The position numbers and the translations under genes are program-made. Shown here in pieces: positions 40,692 to 62,828 of a DNA stretch of 64,000 bases. Under the pieces are notes generated by a model. That model searched no databases and was not told the DNA's origin. It saw nothing but the letters and a program-made list of their open reading frames with translations. The stretch is from positions 1 through 64,000 of the IMG/VR virus record IMGVR_UViG_3300025015_000010. One strand, written 5' to 3'. The DNA comes from a virus. Each line of letters opens with the position of its first letter. Position 1 is the first letter of the stretch.

Positions 40692-40720
40692 TTGACATTA
40701 GCTCGCACAAGTGGTATAGT
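40692..40720 (+). promoter_or_regulatory. Strong sigma70 promoter heading the ncRNA/Ro60 locus
   Basis: TTGACA-17-TATAGT with TG extension. Confidence 0.8.
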
Positions 40721-40769
40721 ACTAGCATAAGAAACAAATGACTTTGGAAACGGAGTCAAATTATGAAAA

Positions 40770-41061
40770 ATAGCGCGTAGATCCATGGGCCATAGCGAGA
40801 ATCCTAACAAAAAGTGCTACCAAGGCACCTCTATCCTACCTGTAAGGAATCGGACTGAGCATGTATGGCGGTATTGGGCAAAGCTCGCAAAGGTCCAAGC
40901 TAGGGATTGGACAATAAGATCCTTGGAGCCGGGTGAAAACCTCACTTCGTGTGACAGCAGGAAACCTGCTTTCAATCCTATTAGCGATTCGTTACCAGTA
41001 TACTGTTCGGGTAACGTCACTCATTCATGATTGTCATAAATGGGTATGAGAAATTGAACGG
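40770..41061 (+). mobile_element. Orphan IS607 right end (tnpB 3' tail plus omegaRNA scaffold)
   Basis: Colinear, gap-free match to 48692-48983; the last 85 nt differ at one base; ends at ..gaaattgaacGG. Confidence 0.9.
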
Positions 41062-41099
41062 TTGCCATGTTAAAGTCCCGGAAACGGAACGAAATTAAC

Positions 41100-41357
41100 C
41101 TCTTGGTGCAGTACAGCGAAGTGAAAGCACAGGAATAATTCTAGTGGATATAGCCGTAATCTATAGTACGAGTTGGCCATAGTAACTATAGTTGTGAGCA
41201 AGGCTGCTAGATACGTTGGACGACAGACGGTGACCTATGCCGGAAATGTACTTTGCGCCTTAATTGGCGGCGTACGAGCAAGGCTGATTAATCGTCAGCC
41301 TACTTAGCCTTCTAAAGATGCCGTAGTTCGTGTCGGTGAAAGCCCGGCCACCGAGAG
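41100..41357 (+). ncRNA. Candidate ~258-nt structured RNA with a tRNA-like terminal stem and T-arm
   Basis: ctcttggtg/caccgagag terminal stem abutting gtcgg-tgaaagc-ccggc; internal hairpins; no ORF in the track. Confidence 0.55.
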
Positions 41358-41371
41358 TTTAATTTTAGAAT

Positions 41372-41440
41372 ACTGAACGAGACGCTTTTGCAGGGTTATC
41401 CTATGGAGATAAAATCCTGCATACTAATTTGCCGTTCAGT
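41372..41440 (+). ncRNA. Y-RNA-like element 1
   Basis: actgaacg/cgttcagt stem, tgcaggg/tcctgca stem, GGTTATC motif. Confidence 0.55.
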
Positions 41441-41449
41441 TTTGTTTGT

Positions 41450-41663: not shown

Positions 41664-43313
41664 ATGTCGAGTTATTTGAAGACTGCTGCGAATCGTAATC
41701 AGAGTACTACACTCCAGACCGAACAGGCACGCGAAGACCAGGTAGTCAACAACGCTGGTGGTTATGTATTTAGCCAGGATGCTTGGTTGAAGGTGAGGTC
41801 GTTTCTTATTCTTGGTGCCGAAGGTGGTACTTACTATGTCGGCGAGAAAGAATTGACTAAGCAGAACACCACTAATTTGCAGGCTTGTCTCAAGGAAGAT
41901 GGGCCACGCTTGGTGCAGTTGATACGCGAGGTATCAGTTAACGGTCTGGCGTCCAAGCAGTCAGCTACCTTGTTTTCCTTGGCGCTAGCCGCTGCGGATG
42001 GTAATGCTGCTACTCGTACGGAAGTTTTGAAGGTACGCGACGAAATTCTGCGTACTGGTTCACATCTGGAAGAATTTGCCAGTTATTTGCTTGGGCTCGG
42101 CTCAAAGTCTTCTAGGTTTACTCGCAGGCTGCTCGGTGGTTGGTACAATAAGCCTATTGACGATCTTGCTTATCAGGCTGTCAAGTACCAGTCCCGTGAA
42201 GGCGTGAGTCACCGCGATATTTTGCGCGTCGCCCATCCCAGGCCAGCGAGTGCATCTCACGATCACTTGTTTAAGTGGGTTGTAGATGGTTCAGCAACAA
42301 CAAAGCCGGTTCCAGAAAAGTTTGCTAACAGAATCAATGTAAAAGCTTTGAAGTCTGTCTTGCAGTTACCAGCGATTGTACAAGCTTTCGAGCGGGCTAA
42401 GGCAGCAACTACTGATACCGAGATTGTGCAGCTTATTACAGAGCATAATCTTCCTCGCGAGTGTATTCCCACACAGTGGCTGAATTCGATTCCAGTGTGG
42501 GAAGCCTTATTGGCAAAGATGCCATTGACCGCGCTGATTCGTAATTTAGGGAAGATGTCTTCGGTCGGACTACTTAGGCCACTTAATGAGGCTTCTAAGC
42601 TGATTGTAGAGAAGCTTAATGACCAAGAGTACTTGACCAAGTCTAGGATTCATCCTATCGGTGTATTGTCGGCTCTGAAGACTTACGAAAGTGGTCACGG
42701 CGTTCGTGGTAAGCTATCTTGGGAACCAGTCAAGCAGGTAATTGATGCGTTGGATAGTGCGTTCTATAAGACGTTTAAGAATGTAGAACCCACTGGCAAG
42801 AACTTCCTACTAGCCTTAGACGTATCAGGTTCGATGGGTGAGGGAGATGTGGGTGGCGTACCTGGATTGAGTCCACGCGAAGCTTCTGCGGCTATGGCTC
42901 TAGTGACTGCTGCCACTGAACCAAACTACGAAATTTTTGGATTTTCAAATAGCTTTGTAAGACTTAATATTACACCCAGGATGCGCTTGGATCAGGCTAC
43001 GAAGGTCATTAGTAATCTGCCATTTGATGGCACAGATTGCTCATTACCAATTCAGTATGCAGATAGGCAGGGCTTAAACGTGGACACGTTTATTGTCTAT
43101 ACTGACAGCGAGACTTACACAGGCAGAATTCATCCGTTCCAGGCTCTCAAGAAGTACCGCGCTAAGACGGGTAAGTTTTCTAAATTGATCGTTGTTGGTA
43201 TGGTTTCCAATGGTTTTACGATTGCAGATCCAAATGACCGAGGCTCACTAGACGTAGTTGGTTTTGACTCATCTGTACCCGAGGTTATTAGGTCGTTTAC
43301 TCTAGCTCAGTAA
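41664..43313 (+). CDS. rsr: Ro60 / Rsr TROVE-domain RNA-binding protein with vWA domain
   Basis: NNAGGYVF, FLILG.EGGTYY, KYQSREG.SHRD.LR.AHP, MPLTALIRNLG, DVSGSM, YTDSET, DVVGFD. Confidence 0.95.
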   Translation: MSSYLKTAANRNQSTTLQTEQAREDQVVNNAGGYVFSQDAWLKVRSFLILGAEGGTYYVGEKELTKQNTTNLQACLKEDGPRLVQLIREVSVNGLASKQSATLFSLALAAADGNAATRTEVLKVRDEILRTGSHLEEFASYLLGLGSKSSRFTRRLLGGWYNKPIDDLAYQAVKYQSREGVSHRDILRVAHPRPASASHDHLFKWVVDGSATTKPVPEKFANRINVKALKSVLQLPAIVQAFERAKAATTDTEIVQLITEHNLPRECIPTQWLNSIPVWEALLAKMPLTALIRNLGKMSSVGLLRPLNEASKLIVEKLNDQEYLTKSRIHPIGVLSALKTYESGHGVRGKLSWEPVKQVIDALDSAFYKTFKNVEPTGKNFLLALDVSGSMGEGDVGGVPGLSPREASAAMALVTAATEPNYEIFGFSNSFVRLNITPRMRLDQATKVISNLPFDGTDCSLPIQYADRQGLNVDTFIVYTDSETYTGRIHPFQALKKYRAKTGKFSKLIVVGMVSNGFTIADPNDRGSLDVVGFDSSVPEVIRSFTLAQ

Positions 43314-43320
43314 AAGCATT

Positions 43321-43450
43321 AGTCGGTACGTCAGTACTGGGTTATCTTCTTAGGGAAGTGAGGCACAGGTTCGAATCCTGTCGGGTGACGCGAGTCACAC
43401 GTAGCTTAGTGGACAGAGCGCATTAGCTCCAGTACAGTATTTGACCGGCT
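43321..43450 (+). ncRNA. YrlA-type Y RNA (circularly permuted tRNA mimic)
   Basis: agtcggtacg...ttgaccggct stem; T-arm acagg-ttcgaat-cctgt precedes a closed acceptor-like hairpin and the D-arm tagcttagtggacagagc. Confidence 0.85.
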
Positions 43451-43457
43451 TTATTTT

Positions 43458-43884: not shown

Positions 43885-43956
43885 TGCGGGGTGGAGCAGT
43901 GGCAGCTCAGAAGGCTCATAATCTTCAGATCGCAGGTTCGATTCCTGCCCCCGCTA
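43885..43956 (+). tRNA. tRNA-Met(CAT), initiator-like
   Basis: Cloverleaf; 1:72 mismatch, A11:U24; anticodon loop CTCATAA; CCA not encoded. Confidence 0.9.
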
Positions 43957-46926: not shown

Positions 46927-47499
46927 ATGAAGCTGAATGATTGGGCAAAGCTGCAAGGGATCACTTATAAAACAGCACATCGCTGGTTTCAAGCAGGTAT
47001 TATTCCTGATCCTGTAAGACAACTTCCAACAGGAACGATTCTGGTCGATGTCGAAAACATTACGAAAGTAGAAAATAGGACCGCGCTTTACGCCCGAGTT
47101 TCATCTTCTGGCCAGAAGGTTGATTTAGACCGACAAACATCAAGACTTATGAGTTTTGCACTCGAAAACAAACTGACCATTGTTGATTCTGTACAGGAAA
47201 TCGGCAGTGGTCTTAACGGACATCGCAAAAAGTTACTGAAGTTGCTGGCCGATAAAAGCATAAATACCATTGTTATAGAGCATCGAGAACGTCTTGCACG
47301 ATTTGGATTTGATTACATCGAAGCAGCCTTGGCCGCGACTGGGCGTAAGCTTGTAGTGATAGACAGCACTGAGATGAAAGACGATTTAGTTCAGGACATG
47401 ATTGATGTTTTGACATCATTTTGTGCAAGACTTTACGGACGCAGGTCCGCAAAGAACAAGGCAAAGAAAGCCATAGAAAGCATTCATGAGCAAGGATAG
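46927..47499 (+). CDS. tnpA: IS607 serine transposase
   Basis: MerR-type HTH, YARVSS..QK.DL.RQ, EH.ERLARFG, SFCARLYGRRS. Confidence 0.95.
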   Translation: MKLNDWAKLQGITYKTAHRWFQAGIIPDPVRQLPTGTILVDVENITKVENRTALYARVSSSGQKVDLDRQTSRLMSFALENKLTIVDSVQEIGSGLNGHRKKLLKLLADKSINTIVIEHRERLARFGFDYIEAALAATGRKLVVIDSTEMKDDLVQDMIDVLTSFCARLYGRRSAKNKAKKAIESIHEQG

Positions 47500-48952
47500 C
47501 ATTTCCACATTTCAGACTAGGATCGATTCATACCCAGCTTTACAGGCTTATGCAGACCGTCATAATCTGGTCGAGCACAAGTTGTACGCCCAGATATTAG
47601 CCGGTAAAAAGCCGAACAAACTTAAGCAAGCGTTCCTAGTTAAGTATGGCATTACGGCGCGACAATTCAATGCTATTGAGCGAAATCTACGCGGTAAAAT
47701 TAGCAGTGTTCAAGAACTTCGCAAGGACCATAAAAAGGAAACAAACTACAGGATCAAGGATTGTGAGCGCAAGATAGAATTTGTCAAGGACAATCTCAAA
47801 CAGCACAATTTGAAGCGCAGATTGCATGGCCTAAAAACCAGGTTGGCCAGGCTCGAACAGATGCCAAAATCCTTGTGTTTCGGGTCCAGGAAGTTGTTCA
47901 ACTCACAATTCGGTCCAGAAATAGATCATGATGTTTGGTCCAGTGATTGGAAACAGTCCCGTTCGAGTCAGTTCTATGTTCTCGGTTCTCACGAAGAAAC
48001 ATCAGGGTGCCAAGGATGTGTCGCTACTGTGCAGGACGACGGCAGCTTAACGCTACGTTTGCGCCTTCCAGATGCACTGATGGCCATCCATGGTAAGTAT
48101 ATTGAAATCCCCGGCGTGTACTTTAACCACGGCCATGAGCATGTACTACAGGCCCTGGCTTTGGGTAATACACCAACCAACTACAGGTTTAAGCTAGATG
48201 GCATTGGCTGGAGAGTCTTCGTTTCAGTTCACGTCATCGAAGCCAAAATTGTTACCAGGGACAGCCTGGGCAGAGTCGGTTTTGACCTTAATGAAGATCA
48301 CATCGCAGTTACCGAGACCGACCGTTTTGGAAATATAATCAACACGTTCAATGAGCCTGTAATAACCACAGACTTGACCACGCACCAGACATTGGCAGTC
48401 TTAGGCAATGCAGTTAAGAATATCGTAGCTTACGCCAAGAACGTTCAAAAGCCTATTGTTATTGAGAAGTTAGATTTCCAAAAGAAACGTGCTGAACTTC
48501 GTGGCCGAGGCCAAACTGCGAAGAATCTTAGTTCATTCGCGTACAGTAAATTCAGATCCATAGTCGTATCGCGTTGTCAGCGAGAAGGCATTAAGGTTTA
48601 CAACGTGAATCCGGCCTACACATCGATTATCGGTAGAAATAAGTTCGCGCTTCGGTACGGACTCACAGTACACAATGCAGCGGCGCTAACTATAGCACGT
48701 AGATCCATGGGCCTAAGTGAGAACCCAAATAAAAAGTGCTACCAAGGCACCTCTTTCCTACCTGTAAGGAATCGGACAGAGCATGTGTGGCGGTACTGGG
48801 CAAAACTCGCAAAGGCTCAAGCTAGGGATTGGGCCACAAGATCCTCGAAACCTGACGCAAATCACGTTTCGTGTGATAGCAGGAAACCTGCTCTCGGTCC
48901 TATTAGCGATTCGTTACCAGTATACTGTTCGGGTAACGTCACTCATTCGTGA
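47486..48952 (+). CDS. tnpB: TnpB-related RNA-guided nuclease
   Basis: RuvC-I GFDLN, RuvC-II VIEKL, VNPAYTS, RuvC-III HNAAALTIARR. Confidence 0.9.
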   Translation: MSKDSISTFQTRIDSYPALQAYADRHNLVEHKLYAQILAGKKPNKLKQAFLVKYGITARQFNAIERNLRGKISSVQELRKDHKKETNYRIKDCERKIEFVKDNLKQHNLKRRLHGLKTRLARLEQMPKSLCFGSRKLFNSQFGPEIDHDVWSSDWKQSRSSQFYVLGSHEETSGCQGCVATVQDDGSLTLRLRLPDALMAIHGKYIEIPGVYFNHGHEHVLQALALGNTPTNYRFKLDGIGWRVFVSVHVIEAKIVTRDSLGRVGFDLNEDHIAVTETDRFGNIINTFNEPVITTDLTTHQTLAVLGNAVKNIVAYAKNVQKPIVIEKLDFQKKRAELRGRGQTAKNLSSFAYSKFRSIVVSRCQREGIKVYNVNPAYTSIIGRNKFALRYGLTVHNAAALTIARRSMGLSENPNKKCYQGTSFLPVRNRTEHVWRYWAKLAKAQARDWATRSSKPDANHVSCDSRKPALGPISDSLPVYCSGNVTHS

Positions 48953-50158
48953 TTGTCATAAATGGGTATGAGAAATTGAACGGTGTTCAAAATGTTCGGA
49001 CGATTTCGATGAGGCTATCGATATGATCAATAATGGTACGGCCCCAACCCATGCTGATTTTCCAAATGCAGACGCCGATGAGATTGAGTACAATAATGAT
49101 CCATTAGGACTTGGTTCGTTGAGTAAAGGAACATCTTGATGGCTGAGTGGACCCGAGAACGCCACGATAAGTGCAAGCAGGCTATTGCCAAGGCCACGCC
49201 AGGCCCGTGGTTTGGTAATAGTTATGGCGAGATGTTTTCAGCTAAAGACTGCACTTGCTGGCCAGGTGACCCAGAGGGTGGAGGACATTTTAAGGAAGGC
49301 TGTCCGTACTATGATTCAGAAGAAGCTAGATTTCCAATAGTGCCCATTTGGGGACACGAAAGTTCGATGGATATGGTGTTTGTCGAGGTGGCTAGGAATC
49401 ATCTGCCCGATGCCTTAGCCGAGATCGAGCGCTTGTGCATTAGGTGCGATGATTTAAAGCATGAGTTAATCGCGGCTGGACGGTGTAAGTAATGTCGTTC
49501 AGCATGTTTCTTCCAAACTATCCAAATAGTGGCTTAGCCGCTGATATGAGTGAGTTGTTCGAAGTTTGGCCAAAGGTACATAGATTGTCTATGGAACAAC
49601 AGGCTGTATACGCTGATGCAGTATTTCGTTGCCATATCGACAATAATGAGTTTTTGTTTCTAAGCCTAGTGCGCTGCGGATCGCCAGCAACAACGACCGC
49701 TGTTGGTAATCTGGCATTCGTGATTTTGTATGTCAAGGACGAGGCAATTAAAGAAAAAGCCAGAGAAATTCTAGGTAATTTTGTTCAGCAAAGAAACCTT
49801 TTAGATGAGAAGCGAGGTAGAAAGTGAGCAAGTCTAAGTGTACAGGCGCTTGCTGTAAACATGTTGCCGGTAAATTAGCCCTCCAAGTGTCTGATTCGAG
49901 ATACGAGCGCTTAACAAAGCGTGTAGACGAAAGTAAGAAGCTGGCAGATTTGTACCGCGAGCTAGGAATAATTCATGGACAATATGCAGAAGATGTGGGA
50001 CAGTTGTTGTTCGAAGTTAGCATAGCCTCGATGAGTGGCAGTTTAGCCTCTGAGATAGGGAATGCTTGTGTACTGCCACAAGAATTGTCAGAGATGAGTA
50101 ATTCTAAACCAAATGGTAGGCTAAAAAGTGCTATAAAAAAGCACGGACGTAATTTTGC

Positions 50159-62575: not shown

Positions 62576-62658
62576 GGCCCAGTGCTGGAATGGCAGACAG
62601 TCAGCATTTAAAATGCTGTGTCCGTAAGGGCGTGTGGGTTCGAGTCCCACCTGGGCTA
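62576..62658 (+). tRNA. tRNA-Leu(TAA)
   Basis: Long variable arm; cagca-tttaaaa-tgctg; gtggg-ttcgagt-cccac. Confidence 0.9.
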
Positions 62659-62668
62659 CTAAATACTA

Positions 62669-62741
62669 GGGACCGTAGCTTAATGGTCAAAGCGTCCCGC
62701 TCATAACGGGTTGAGTACTGGTTCGAGTCCAGTCGGTCCCA
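62669..62741 (+). tRNA. tRNA with CAT anticodon (probably Ile2; elongator Met not excluded)
   Basis: gggaccg/cggtccc acceptor; CTCATAA loop. Confidence 0.85.
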
Positions 62742-62751
62742 CAGAAATCGT

Positions 62752-62828
62752 GTCCCTGTAGCTCAAATGGATAGAGCAAGTCGGTTCTAACGACAAGGTT
62801 GAAAGTTCGAATCTTTCCAGGGATACCA
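62752..62828 (+). tRNA. tRNA-Arg(TCT)
   Basis: gtccctg/cagggat acceptor; GTTCTAA loop; CCA encoded. Confidence 0.85.

What the first reader, a model, noticed from the sequence alone, without database searches (positions are those of the whole stretch)
41100..41357. Unassigned ~258-nt structured RNA with a tRNA-like end, directly upstream of the Y RNAs
Seen: a 9-bp terminal stem (ctcttggtg/caccgagag) stacks directly on a 5-bp stem with a 7-nt loop (gtcgg-TGAAAGC-ccggc), the acceptor plus T-arm geometry of tRNA and tmRNA, but with no CCA or tmRNA 5' motif. GTGAAAGC also occurs at 41121, and gagcaaggctg occurs twice (41196, 41276). Internal helices include ctagtgg/ctgctag, cgcc-ttaatt-ggcg and aggctga-N7-tcagcct. 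The ORF track has nothing here. Inference: a large phage ncRNA, conceptually like GOLLD/ROOL/raiA-class RNAs, that I cannot assign to a family; it may be a Ro60 client.
Basis: partly seen in the sequence, partly recalled or inferred. Interest (0 to 1): 0.72.

Follow-up and report, generated by a model that had tools for sequence, protein, structure and literature searches.

The report
Orphan stem-closed RNA cassette beside Ro60
A 258-base non-coding stretch in a groundwater phage, lying between a stray transposon guide RNA and the phage's Y RNAs, looks like a self-contained RNA unit whose two ends pair in a tRNA-like way, but it has no relatives anywhere I could search, so its reality as a functional RNA is plausible and unproven.

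Summary
The closing stem abutting a 5-bp/7-nt hairpin occurs in 0.2% of shuffles and at about 1% background in this genome. The 11-nt repeat occurs in 0.8% of shuffles.

New context favours a discrete unit:
- The stretch starts right after a degenerate second copy of the operon's leader hairpin.
- It ends at the AU-rich spacer before the first Y RNA.
- Its closing helix extends into both flanks, giving 17 bp.
- In sister phages (Ro60 90% identical) the same slot holds an unrelated, strongly structured 735-nt RNA that also ends in a tRNA-like domain.

Evidence against:
- No Rfam, tRNA/tmRNA, Y-RNA or RNase P assignment.
- No homologue in any collection searched; all other copies are 100% identical, so covariation cannot be tested.
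- Overall folding energy is no better than shuffles (z about -0.5).
- The sister lineages lack it.

It directly follows an orphan IS607 TnpB omega-RNA copy (40767-41062).

Verdict: probably (about 45%) a lineage-specific, stem-closed RNA cassette, released by processing at its tRNA-like or double-stranded closing helix. A relic with no function is nearly as likely (about 35%). Interest is modest. Earlier scan notes concern this genome only.

The parts
40692..40720 (+). Near-consensus sigma-70 promoter (TTGACA-17-TATAGT, TG before the -10). It is the only strong + strand promoter upstream of the candidate.
   Evidence: 11 of 12 matches; conserved in relatives L004/L006
40740..40763 (+). Leader 1: 7-bp hairpin with a GAAA loop (GACTTTG-GAAA-CGGAGTC), followed by AAATTA
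   Evidence: conserved in L004/L006 and in a third copy at genome ~113.2 kb
40767..41062 (+). Orphan copy of the last ~89 codons of IS607 tnpB plus the right end (omega-RNA scaffold region). Homology stops at ...GAACGGT.
   Evidence: full element tnpA 46927-47499 and tnpB 47486-48952
41063..41099 (+). Flank of the IS607 right end, where an omega-RNA guide would lie. It contains leader 2: a degenerate copy of the leader hairpin (41075-41090) followed by AAATTA (41092-41097).
   Evidence: GGAAACGGA-NNN-AAATTA occurs only at 40746 and 41080 in the 168.7 kb genome
41091..41108 (+).
41100..41357 (+).
41196..41206 (+). First copy of the 11-nt repeat GAGCAAGGCTG. GTACGAG lies upstream at 41166.
41276..41301 (+). 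Second copy of GAGCAAGGCTG. It runs into the 7-bp hairpin AGGCTGA-TTAATCG-TCAGCCT. GTACGAG at 41272 overlaps its start.
41332..41348 (+). T-arm-like hairpin: 5-bp stem and 7-nt loop UGAAAGC, abutting the 3' strand of the closing stem
41349..41366 (+). 3' strand of the closing helix: CACCGAGAG (41349-41357), unpaired U41358, then TTAATTTT (41359-41366) in the AU-rich spacer
41369..41441 (+). First Y-RNA-like unit. Homology with the sister phages resumes here.
   Evidence: (weak YrlB match)
41664..43313 (+). Ro60 (TROVE + vWA_Ro60) gene of the operon

Best explanation
41100-41357 is a lineage-specific non-coding RNA cassette within one long RNA operon. The operon order is promoter 40692-40720, leader, orphan omega-RNA, this unit, three Y RNAs, Ro60, then more Y RNAs.

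Shown:
- The unit begins immediately after a second, degenerate copy of the operon's leader hairpin plus AAAUUA.
- It ends at the AU-rich spacer that precedes Y1.
- Its two ends form a 9-bp helix. The helix extends into the leader tail and the spacer (17 bp with one 1x1 mismatch) and is stacked on a 5-bp/7-nt-loop hairpin.
- In sister phages the same slot (leader, RNA, spacer, Y1) holds an unrelated 735-nt, strongly structured RNA that also ends in an acceptor/T-arm domain, there with an encoded GCCA.

Inferred:
- The unit is transcribed by read-through from the 40692 promoter. No terminator-like site lies between.
- It is cut out of the precursor at its closing helix. Candidate enzymes are tRNA-end enzymes (RNase P at the 5' side, RNase Z or exonucleases and possibly CCA addition at the 3' side) or RNase III on the 17-bp duplex.
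- The same cut would set the 3' end of the upstream omega-RNA/guide and free the Y RNAs.
- The released RNA of about 258 nt would be a stem-closed, nuclease-protected molecule. Its loosely structured interior, with two GUACGAG...CAAGGCUG arms, would act with the Ro60/Y-RNA machinery or as a tRNA-like decoy.

That last step is the weakest and is pure inference.
For: - Boundaries: sister phages (Ro60 90% identical) align with the window up to 40763 and again from 41371. Everything between differs.
- Leader 2: GGAAACGGA-NNN-AAATTA occurs only twice in 168.7 kb, at 40746 and 41080. The candidate starts 2 nt after the second copy, just as the relatives' RNA starts after theirs.
- Closing architecture: 0.2% of shuffles reach it, with about 1% genome background.
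- End-to-end duplex: -20.2 kcal/mol, reached by 0.23% of shuffles and 1.8% of same-geometry genome controls. Pair probabilities are above 0.9 in local contexts.
- 11-nt internal repeat: 0.8% of shuffles.
- No ORF with homologues.
- One strong promoter upstream and no terminator-like site before 43323.
- Analogue in relatives: the 735-nt RNA has z -6.7. All 13 substitutions in predicted pairs keep pairing, and two pairs changed on both sides. Its 8-bp stem + T arm + GCCA is found by the same scan.
- A third promoter-leader copy in this genome also drives stem-closed, ORF-free RNA.
- Precedent: M. smegmatis YrlA, encoded next to Ro60, is cut by RNase P and receives CCA (PMC4201824).
- Missing CCA is uninformative: 3 of 4 tRNA genes of this phage also lack it.
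Against: - No homologue was found. The phage collection gave no blastn match. Three IMG/VR pattern scans and one scan of 185,579 species genomes gave only chance matches.
- All other contigs carrying it are 100% identical. There is therefore no conservation or covariation evidence at all.
- The closest relatives lack it.
- Folding energy is ordinary: z -0.5 to -0.66.
- The centroid leaves most of the interior unpaired.
- The terminal stem loses out (p 0.09) when a 660-nt context is folded at equilibrium.
- The loop UGAAAGC is not a T-loop consensus, and the stem is 9 bp rather than 7 bp.
- About ten such architectures occur by chance elsewhere in this genome.
- The pattern was picked post hoc.
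- No expression data could be obtained.
Confidence: 0.45

Rival explanations
1. A relic without function of its own. The stretch is whatever lay next to an old IS607 insertion, or was brought in with it. It survived the deletion that fused leader 1 to tnpB codon ~402. Its stems and repeat are chance, or vestiges of a decayed earlier cassette.
For: - It directly follows an IS607 right end whose other copies sit at different sites in related phages.
- It is absent from the sister lineages.
- No homologues were found.
- Folding energy matches shuffled sequence.
- The same stem/hairpin architecture occurs about ten times by chance in this genome.
- Leader 2 is degenerate: it has a C-A mismatch and no promoter is left upstream.
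Against: - Three independent low-probability features coincide in one ORF-free unit: the closing architecture (0.2-1%), the end-to-end duplex (0.2-1.8%) and the 11-nt repeat (0.8%).
- The unit's ends match the leader and spacer boundaries exactly.
- The slot holds a clearly functional structured RNA in relatives.
Confidence: 0.35
2. It is not an independent RNA. It is the 3' trailer of the orphan omega-RNA transcription unit. In this reading it is a structured insulator or processing block that defines the omega-RNA/guide 3' end and keeps the omega-RNA and the Y RNAs from misfolding together.
For: - It starts 38 nt after the omega-RNA scaffold ends.
- It shares that promoter, with no terminator between.
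- The closing helix starts at 41091, about 29 nt past the scaffold. A cut there would leave a guide-length tail.
Against: - 258 nt is far more than such a role needs.
- The full IS607 copy and the copies in relatives have no similar sequence downstream of their right ends.
- The unit has its own leader copy, which argues that it predates the IS insertion.
Confidence: 0.12
3. A very divergent member of a known RNA family: tmRNA, Y RNA/YrlA, RNase P RNA, SRP/6S RNA, or GOLLD/ROOL/raiA.
For: - Acceptor/T-arm closure around a large insert resembles tmRNA.
- GUACG words resemble the 5' handle of this phage's Y RNAs.
- It shares the words AAAGTCC, GTGAAAG, GAGCAAGGC and ACGACAGA, in the same order, with E. 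coli RNase P RNA.
Against: - No Rfam match at E up to 10, even in a 336-nt search.
- RF00010 finds nothing in the whole phage record.
- ARAGORN finds no tmRNA.
- The regex that finds Y1-Y4 finds nothing in the candidate.
- The colinear word chain with rnpB is reached by 5.5% of shuffles and 2.9% of genome windows.
- No partner for a P4 helix exists.
Confidence: 0.04
4. It encodes a small protein (44-aa ORF at 41173-41307 on + or 43-aa ORF at 41070-41201 on -).
For: The ORFs exist.
Against: - Both have TTG starts.
- No homologue was found in 5.8 billion clusters.
- Only sub-threshold Pfam noise was seen.
- Gene callers did not call them on any of the contigs fetched.
Confidence: 0.02

Closest known systems
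Bacterial/phage Y RNAs of the YrlA type with a tRNA-like domain (Rfam RF02553; Chen et al. 2014, PMC4201824)
   Same: Both are encoded next to Ro60 in a polycistronic RNA precursor and contain an acceptor-like stem stacked on a T-arm-like hairpin. In M. smegmatis that module is cut by RNase P and receives CCA, which is the processing route proposed here.
   Different: The candidate has no Ro-binding handle: no G(U/A)ACG...GG(U/A)UA(U/C)C with a 3' UUGAC. It has no D arm and no T-loop consensus, gets no covariance-model score, and is two to three times longer. In YrlA the RNA ends form the Ro-binding stem; here they form the acceptor-like stem.
tmRNA tRNA-like domain
   Same: The 5' and 3' ends pair as an acceptor stem stacked on a T arm, enclosing a large insert in place of the D and anticodon arms (my knowledge of tmRNA; geometry).
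   Different: ARAGORN and Rfam detect nothing. There is no G3-U70 pair, since the only wobble is at pair 5. There is no encoded CCA, no UUCGA T loop, and no recognisable tag reading frame.
The 735-nt RNA that occupies the same slot in sister phages
   Same: Both share the same position (leader hairpin + AAAUUAC, RNA, UUUAAUU spacer, Y1). Neither has an Rfam family. Both have a 3' domain closed by a long stem abutting a 5-bp/7-nt hairpin.
   Different: There is no sequence similarity. The sister RNA is three times longer, very stable (z -6.7), has compensatory changes, a near-consensus T loop (UCCGACU) and an encoded GCCA end.
tRNA-like or duplex processing signals in precursor RNAs (mascRNA at the MALAT1 3' end; RNase III stalks flanking rRNAs and phage early RNAs)
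   Same: A helix that brings the two ends of a unit together inside a longer transcript, suited to RNase P/Z or RNase III cleavage (from my own knowledge of these systems; helix).
   Different: This is function by analogy only. No cleavage data exist for this RNA.
Large phage-associated RNAs GOLLD, ROOL, raiA (Rfam)
   Same: All are phage-borne, ORF-free and close to tRNA-like genes.
   Different: The candidate gets no model hits. It is much smaller, shows no thermodynamic signal and has no family of homologues.

Membership tests
tRNA / tRNA-like structure | Detected by tRNA covariance model or ARAGORN (cloverleaf with D and anticodon arms) | tested here: not met
   four true tRNAs found in the window, nothing at 41100-41357
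tRNA / tRNA-like structure | Acceptor stem coaxial with a 5-bp T stem carrying a 7-nt loop | tested here: met
   9 bp + 5 bp with no intervening base and a 7-nt loop. The stem is 9 bp, not 7 bp.
tRNA / tRNA-like structure | T-loop consensus U-U(psi)-C-R-A | tested here: not met
   the loop is UGAAAGC; only positions 1 (U) and 5 (A) fit
tRNA / tRNA-like structure | 3' discriminator + CCA | tested here: inconclusive
   CCA is not encoded (UUUAAUU follows), but 3 of 4 tRNA genes of this phage also lack an encoded CCA
tmRNA | ARAGORN/Rfam detection, G3-U70 alanine identity pair, tag-peptide frame | tested here: not met
   The only wobble pair is U41104-G41353 (pair 5). The tag frame was not examined.
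Y RNA / YrlA / YrlB | Ro60-binding handle formed by the RNA's 5' and 3' ends (in this phage G(U/A)ACG...GG(U/A)UA(U/C)C with a 3' UUGAC) | tested here: not met
   The regex finds Y1-Y4 and the relatives' units but nothing in 41100-41357. There is no YrlA/YrlB/Y_RNA score there at E up to 10.
RNase P RNA (RF00010) | Covariance-model match, and a P4 helix between the CR-I and CR-V motifs | tested here: not met
   No hit in the whole record at E up to 10 or in the 336-nt search. The shared-word chain with E. coli rnpB is not significant. No CCGG..CUU partner for AAAGUCCCGG is present.
GOLLD / ROOL / raiA / HEARO / OLE | Match to the family covariance model | tested here: not met
TnpB omega-RNA (IS607 right end) | Homology to the 3' end of tnpB and the transposon right end | tested here: not met
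   Homology to all five IS607 copies stops at 41062 and the flanks differ. The candidate lies outside the scaffold.
Discrete functional ncRNA (generic) | Conservation with compensatory base changes, or a defined transcript | not testable with these tools
   Only 100% identical copies exist. No homologues were found.

The most novel reading that the evidence does not exclude
This group of groundwater phages has an exchangeable 'RNA slot' in its Ro60/Y-RNA operon. Unrelated RNAs occupy it: this 258-nt unit in one lineage and a 735-nt RNA in the sister lineages. Each is launched by the same promoter-leader module and closed by a tRNA-like acceptor/T-arm domain. The occupants would form a new class of tRNA-ended phage RNAs that are matured by host tRNA enzymes. 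They would work with phage Ro60, or act as decoys for tRNA-targeting host defences.
Probability: 0.15. Interest if true: 0.65.

Novelty: new variant of a known kind. Interest (0 to 1): 0.35.

Why it matters
If real, the unit would add a third kind of RNA to phage Ro60 operons, beside Y RNAs and tRNAs. It would show that such operons swap whole RNA cassettes between close relatives, with tRNA-like closure as the common processing handle.

It would also bear on how the adjacent orphan TnpB guide RNA gets its 3' end.

As it stands, this is a singleton sequence from one clonal phage population. The well-supported 735-nt RNA of the sister phages and the promoter-leader module are better entry points for experiments than this stretch.

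Tried and rejected
1. Known families. Rfam at gathering and at E up to 10 on 64 kb, 3.9 kb and 336 nt and ARAGORN gave nothing.

2. Homologue hunt.
- blastn against 50,697 phage records.
- IMG/VR pattern scans with the doubled 11-mer, the T-arm 17-mer and the 11-mer-plus-hairpin.
- The same hairpin pattern in 185,579 species genomes.
- All matches were chance hits without flanking similarity, several inside coding sequence.
It returned only the known relative and a chance match in a eukaryote-like retroelement.

3. Variation. Contigs carrying the identical Ro60 are 100% identical across the region.

4. Other sources of relatives. Ro60 relatives at 53-55% identity sit in bacterial contexts and came without DNA. 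IMG/VR holds no relative of the TnpB.

5. Truncated-RNA idea. I first thought the stretch was the 3' remnant of a larger RNA cut by IS607. I dropped this after finding its own leader copy directly upstream.

6. Degenerate Y RNA units. Rejected.

7. Mini RNase P RNA. This was suggested by shared words with E. coli rnpB. I rejected it (no P4 partner).

8. Small protein. Rejected.

9. Expression.

10. Kin search.

Full report
**What the window is.**
The window is the first 64 kb of a 168.7 kb IMG/VR virus record. Identical contigs come from groundwater metagenomes.

The ORF at 41664-43313 is a Ro60 protein with TROVE and vWA_Ro60 domains. Y-RNA-like units lie on both sides of it:
- 41369-41441, a weak YrlB match;
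- units starting at 41449 and 41563, found by their shared handle;
- 43321-43454, weak YrlA and Y_RNA matches.

A near-consensus promoter sits at 40692-40720. No terminator-like site follows before 43323.

**The observation.**
- The 9-bp terminal stem (41100-41108 with 41349-41357, one U-G) and the abutting hairpin (41332-41348, 5 bp, loop UGAAAGC) are kept in both the minimum-energy and centroid folds.
- Their pair probabilities are 0.9-1.0 and about 0.7 in contexts up to 41000-41445.
- With a few flanking bases the helix grows. 41091-41098 (GAAAUUAA) pairs with 41359-41366 (UUAAUUUU). Only C41099 and U41358 stay unpaired, giving 17 bp.

**Is it more than chance?**
- A stem of 9 bp or more (at most one G-U) directly abutting a 5-bp/7-nt hairpin appears in 0.2% of 3000 dinucleotide shuffles of 41063-41370. 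At 7 bp or more the figure is 3.6%.
- A scan of the whole phage genome finds 12 such architectures in 337 kb of both strands. One is the real tRNA-Arg. The background for any given 308-nt stretch is therefore about 1%.
- The end-to-end duplex (-20.2 kcal/mol) is reached by 0.23% of shuffles and 1.8% of same-geometry controls across the genome.
- The 11-nt repeat GAGCAAGGCTG occurs in 0.8% of shuffles.

Against this:
- The fold as a whole is ordinary. Its z-score is -0.58, or -0.49 to -0.66. The Y RNAs score -1.1 to -4.7 and the two omega-RNA copies -1.4 and -2.4.
- The terminal stem is out-competed when 660 nt are folded at equilibrium.

**What lies immediately upstream.**
Window 40767-41062 is a copy of the last ~89 codons plus the right end of an IS607 element. 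The full copy lies at 46927-48985:
- tnpA matches the IS607 transposase equivalog at 200 bits;
- tnpB matches the TnpB-related domain TIGR01766 at 50 bits.

Homology stops at ...GAACGGT (41062). Four other copies of this element in related contigs end at the same place, each with a different flank. So 41063 onward is ordinary target-site flank and not part of the transposon. The orphan copy is closer (93.9%) to the copy in L034/L035 than to the resident one (88.7%).

**The sister phages.**
Two lineages have a Ro60 that is 90% identical (L004/L005 and L006/L007). They align with the window up to 40763 and again from 41371. In between they carry a completely different sequence of 735-741 nt.

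That RNA is strongly structured:
- Its z-score is -6.7.
- Of the 29 differences between the two lineages, all 13 substitutions in predicted pairs keep pairing. Two pairs changed on both sides. One caveat applies: the structure was predicted from these same two sequences.
- It matches no Rfam family.
- It ends with an 8-bp stem (TGCCCTGC/GCAGGGTA) abutting CTGGG-TCCGACT-CCCAG, followed by G-CCA and then TTTAATT.

So the same slot in close relatives holds another RNA that also has a tRNA-like 3' domain.

**A second leader.**
The operon's leader is a GAAA-loop hairpin followed by AAATTA (40740-40763). It is conserved in the relatives and in a third promoter-leader copy at about 113.2 kb on the minus strand.

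The string GGAAACGGA-NNN-AAATTA occurs only twice in the 168.7 kb genome, at 40746 and 41080. The second copy (41075-41097) is degenerate and has a C-A mismatch in the stem. It lies directly in front of the candidate.

This gives the candidate the same layout as the relatives' RNA: leader hairpin, AAAUUA(A)C, then the RNA. It is therefore a complete cassette, not the truncated 3' end of something cut by the transposon.

The simplest history (inference) is this:
- Two tandem leader-driven cassettes once stood upstream of Y1.
- An IS607 inserted just upstream of the second leader.
- A deletion then ran from just after leader 1 to tnpB codon ~402.

The third promoter-leader copy drives about 720 nt of ORF-free RNA (z -3.96). 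It is made of units closed by 13-17-bp stems. Stem-closed RNA units behind this module are thus a habit of this phage.

**What it is not.**
- It matches no Rfam family at E up to 10, even when only 336 nt are searched.
- ARAGORN finds no tRNA or tmRNA.
- It has no Y-RNA handle.
- RNase P RNA was considered because the stretch shares AAAGTCC, GTGAAAG, GAGCAAGGC and ACGACAGA, in the same order, with E. coli rnpB. The model RF00010 finds nothing in the whole record. The word chain is matched by 5.5% of shuffles and 2.9% of genome windows. No partner for a P4 helix exists.
- The 44-aa ORF has no homologue.

**Homologues.**
None were found. Sources searched:
- phage records;
- IMG/VR pattern scans (checked in 41-43);
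- species genomes;
- the metagenome scan with the leader motif.

All contigs that carry the stretch are 100% identical, so covariation cannot be tested.

**Mechanism.**
I think the most likely reading (about 45%) is a lineage-specific RNA cassette that is transcribed from the 40692 promoter as part of one long precursor. It would be released by cleavage at its closing helix. Either tRNA-end enzymes or RNase III could do this.

There is a precedent: the Ro60-linked YrlA of M. smegmatis is cut by RNase P and receives CCA (PMC4201824). The missing CCA says little, since three of the phage's four tRNA genes also lack it.

The same cut would trim the omega-RNA/guide upstream and free Y1 downstream. 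What the released RNA then does (Ro60 partner, tRNA-like decoy) is conjecture.

The main rival (about 35%) is that the stretch is a relic beside an old transposon insertion. The other rivals are a mere trailer or insulator of the omega-RNA unit (about 12%), a hidden member of a known family (about 4%) and a small protein gene (about 2%).

**Novelty and score.**
If real, it is a new variant within a known theme: tRNA-like modules in Ro60-linked RNA operons. As a singleton without conservation, covariation, thermodynamic signal or transcript evidence, it deserves only modest interest (0.35). The neighbouring findings are stronger: the 735-nt RNA of the sister phages, the reusable promoter-leader module and the orphan omega-RNA.

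Noticed in passing
L004:303-1037 and L006:2323-3063 (sister phages, same slot as window 40764-41370): A 735-741-nt ORF-free RNA with no Rfam match and a folding z-score of -6.7. All 13 substitutions in predicted pairs keep pairing, and two pairs changed on both sides. Its 3' domain is tRNA-like: 8-bp stem, T arm with loop UCCGACT, encoded GCCA. It looks like an undescribed large phage RNA. One IMG/VR pattern scan found no further copies.
   Followed up: partly
window 40767-41062: The orphan IS607 tnpB 3' end/right end (omega-RNA scaffold) sits behind a strong promoter. It is 93.9% identical to the IS607 copy in L034/L035 but only 88.7% to the resident copy at 46927-48985, so it stems from a separate insertion. 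All copies end at GAACGG(T/C) with different flanks, so the element is mobile in this phage group. Its would-be guide (41063-41082) is simply the old target flank, which is the start of leader 2.
   Followed up: partly
L037:1995-2800 minus strand (genome about 112.5-113.3 kb, outside the window): A third copy of the promoter plus leader hairpin (TTGACA-17-TATAGT, GACTCGGAAACGAGTC). It is followed by about 720 nt without convincing ORFs and with a folding z-score of -3.96. This RNA is made of units closed by 13-17-bp stems; the first unit, 105 nt, has z -3.2.
   Followed up: partly
L004:1038-1100 and L006:3064-3125 versus window 41358-41371: The sister phages carry a second promoter-like site (TTGACT-17-TAGACT) directly upstream of Y1. 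The window lacks it, so in the window the Y RNAs depend on read-through from 40692.
   Followed up: no
window 43885-43956, 62576-62658, 62669-62741, 62752-62825: Three of the four phage tRNA genes do not encode the 3' CCA. Only tRNA-Arg does.
   Followed up: no
window 40793-41131: Several independent assemblies of this phage break inside or just after the orphan IS607 end: contig starts correspond to 40793, 40809, 41033 and 41131. The L006 contig ends exactly at the IS607 right end. This is typical of repeat-induced assembly breaks.
   Followed up: no
window 41664-43313: Apart from the 90-100% identical phage copies, the nearest Ro60 relatives (53-55% identity) lie in bacterial contexts. One sits beside RtcB and some are named Verrucomicrobiae. 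This hints at the source of the gene and perhaps at the host group.
   Followed up: no
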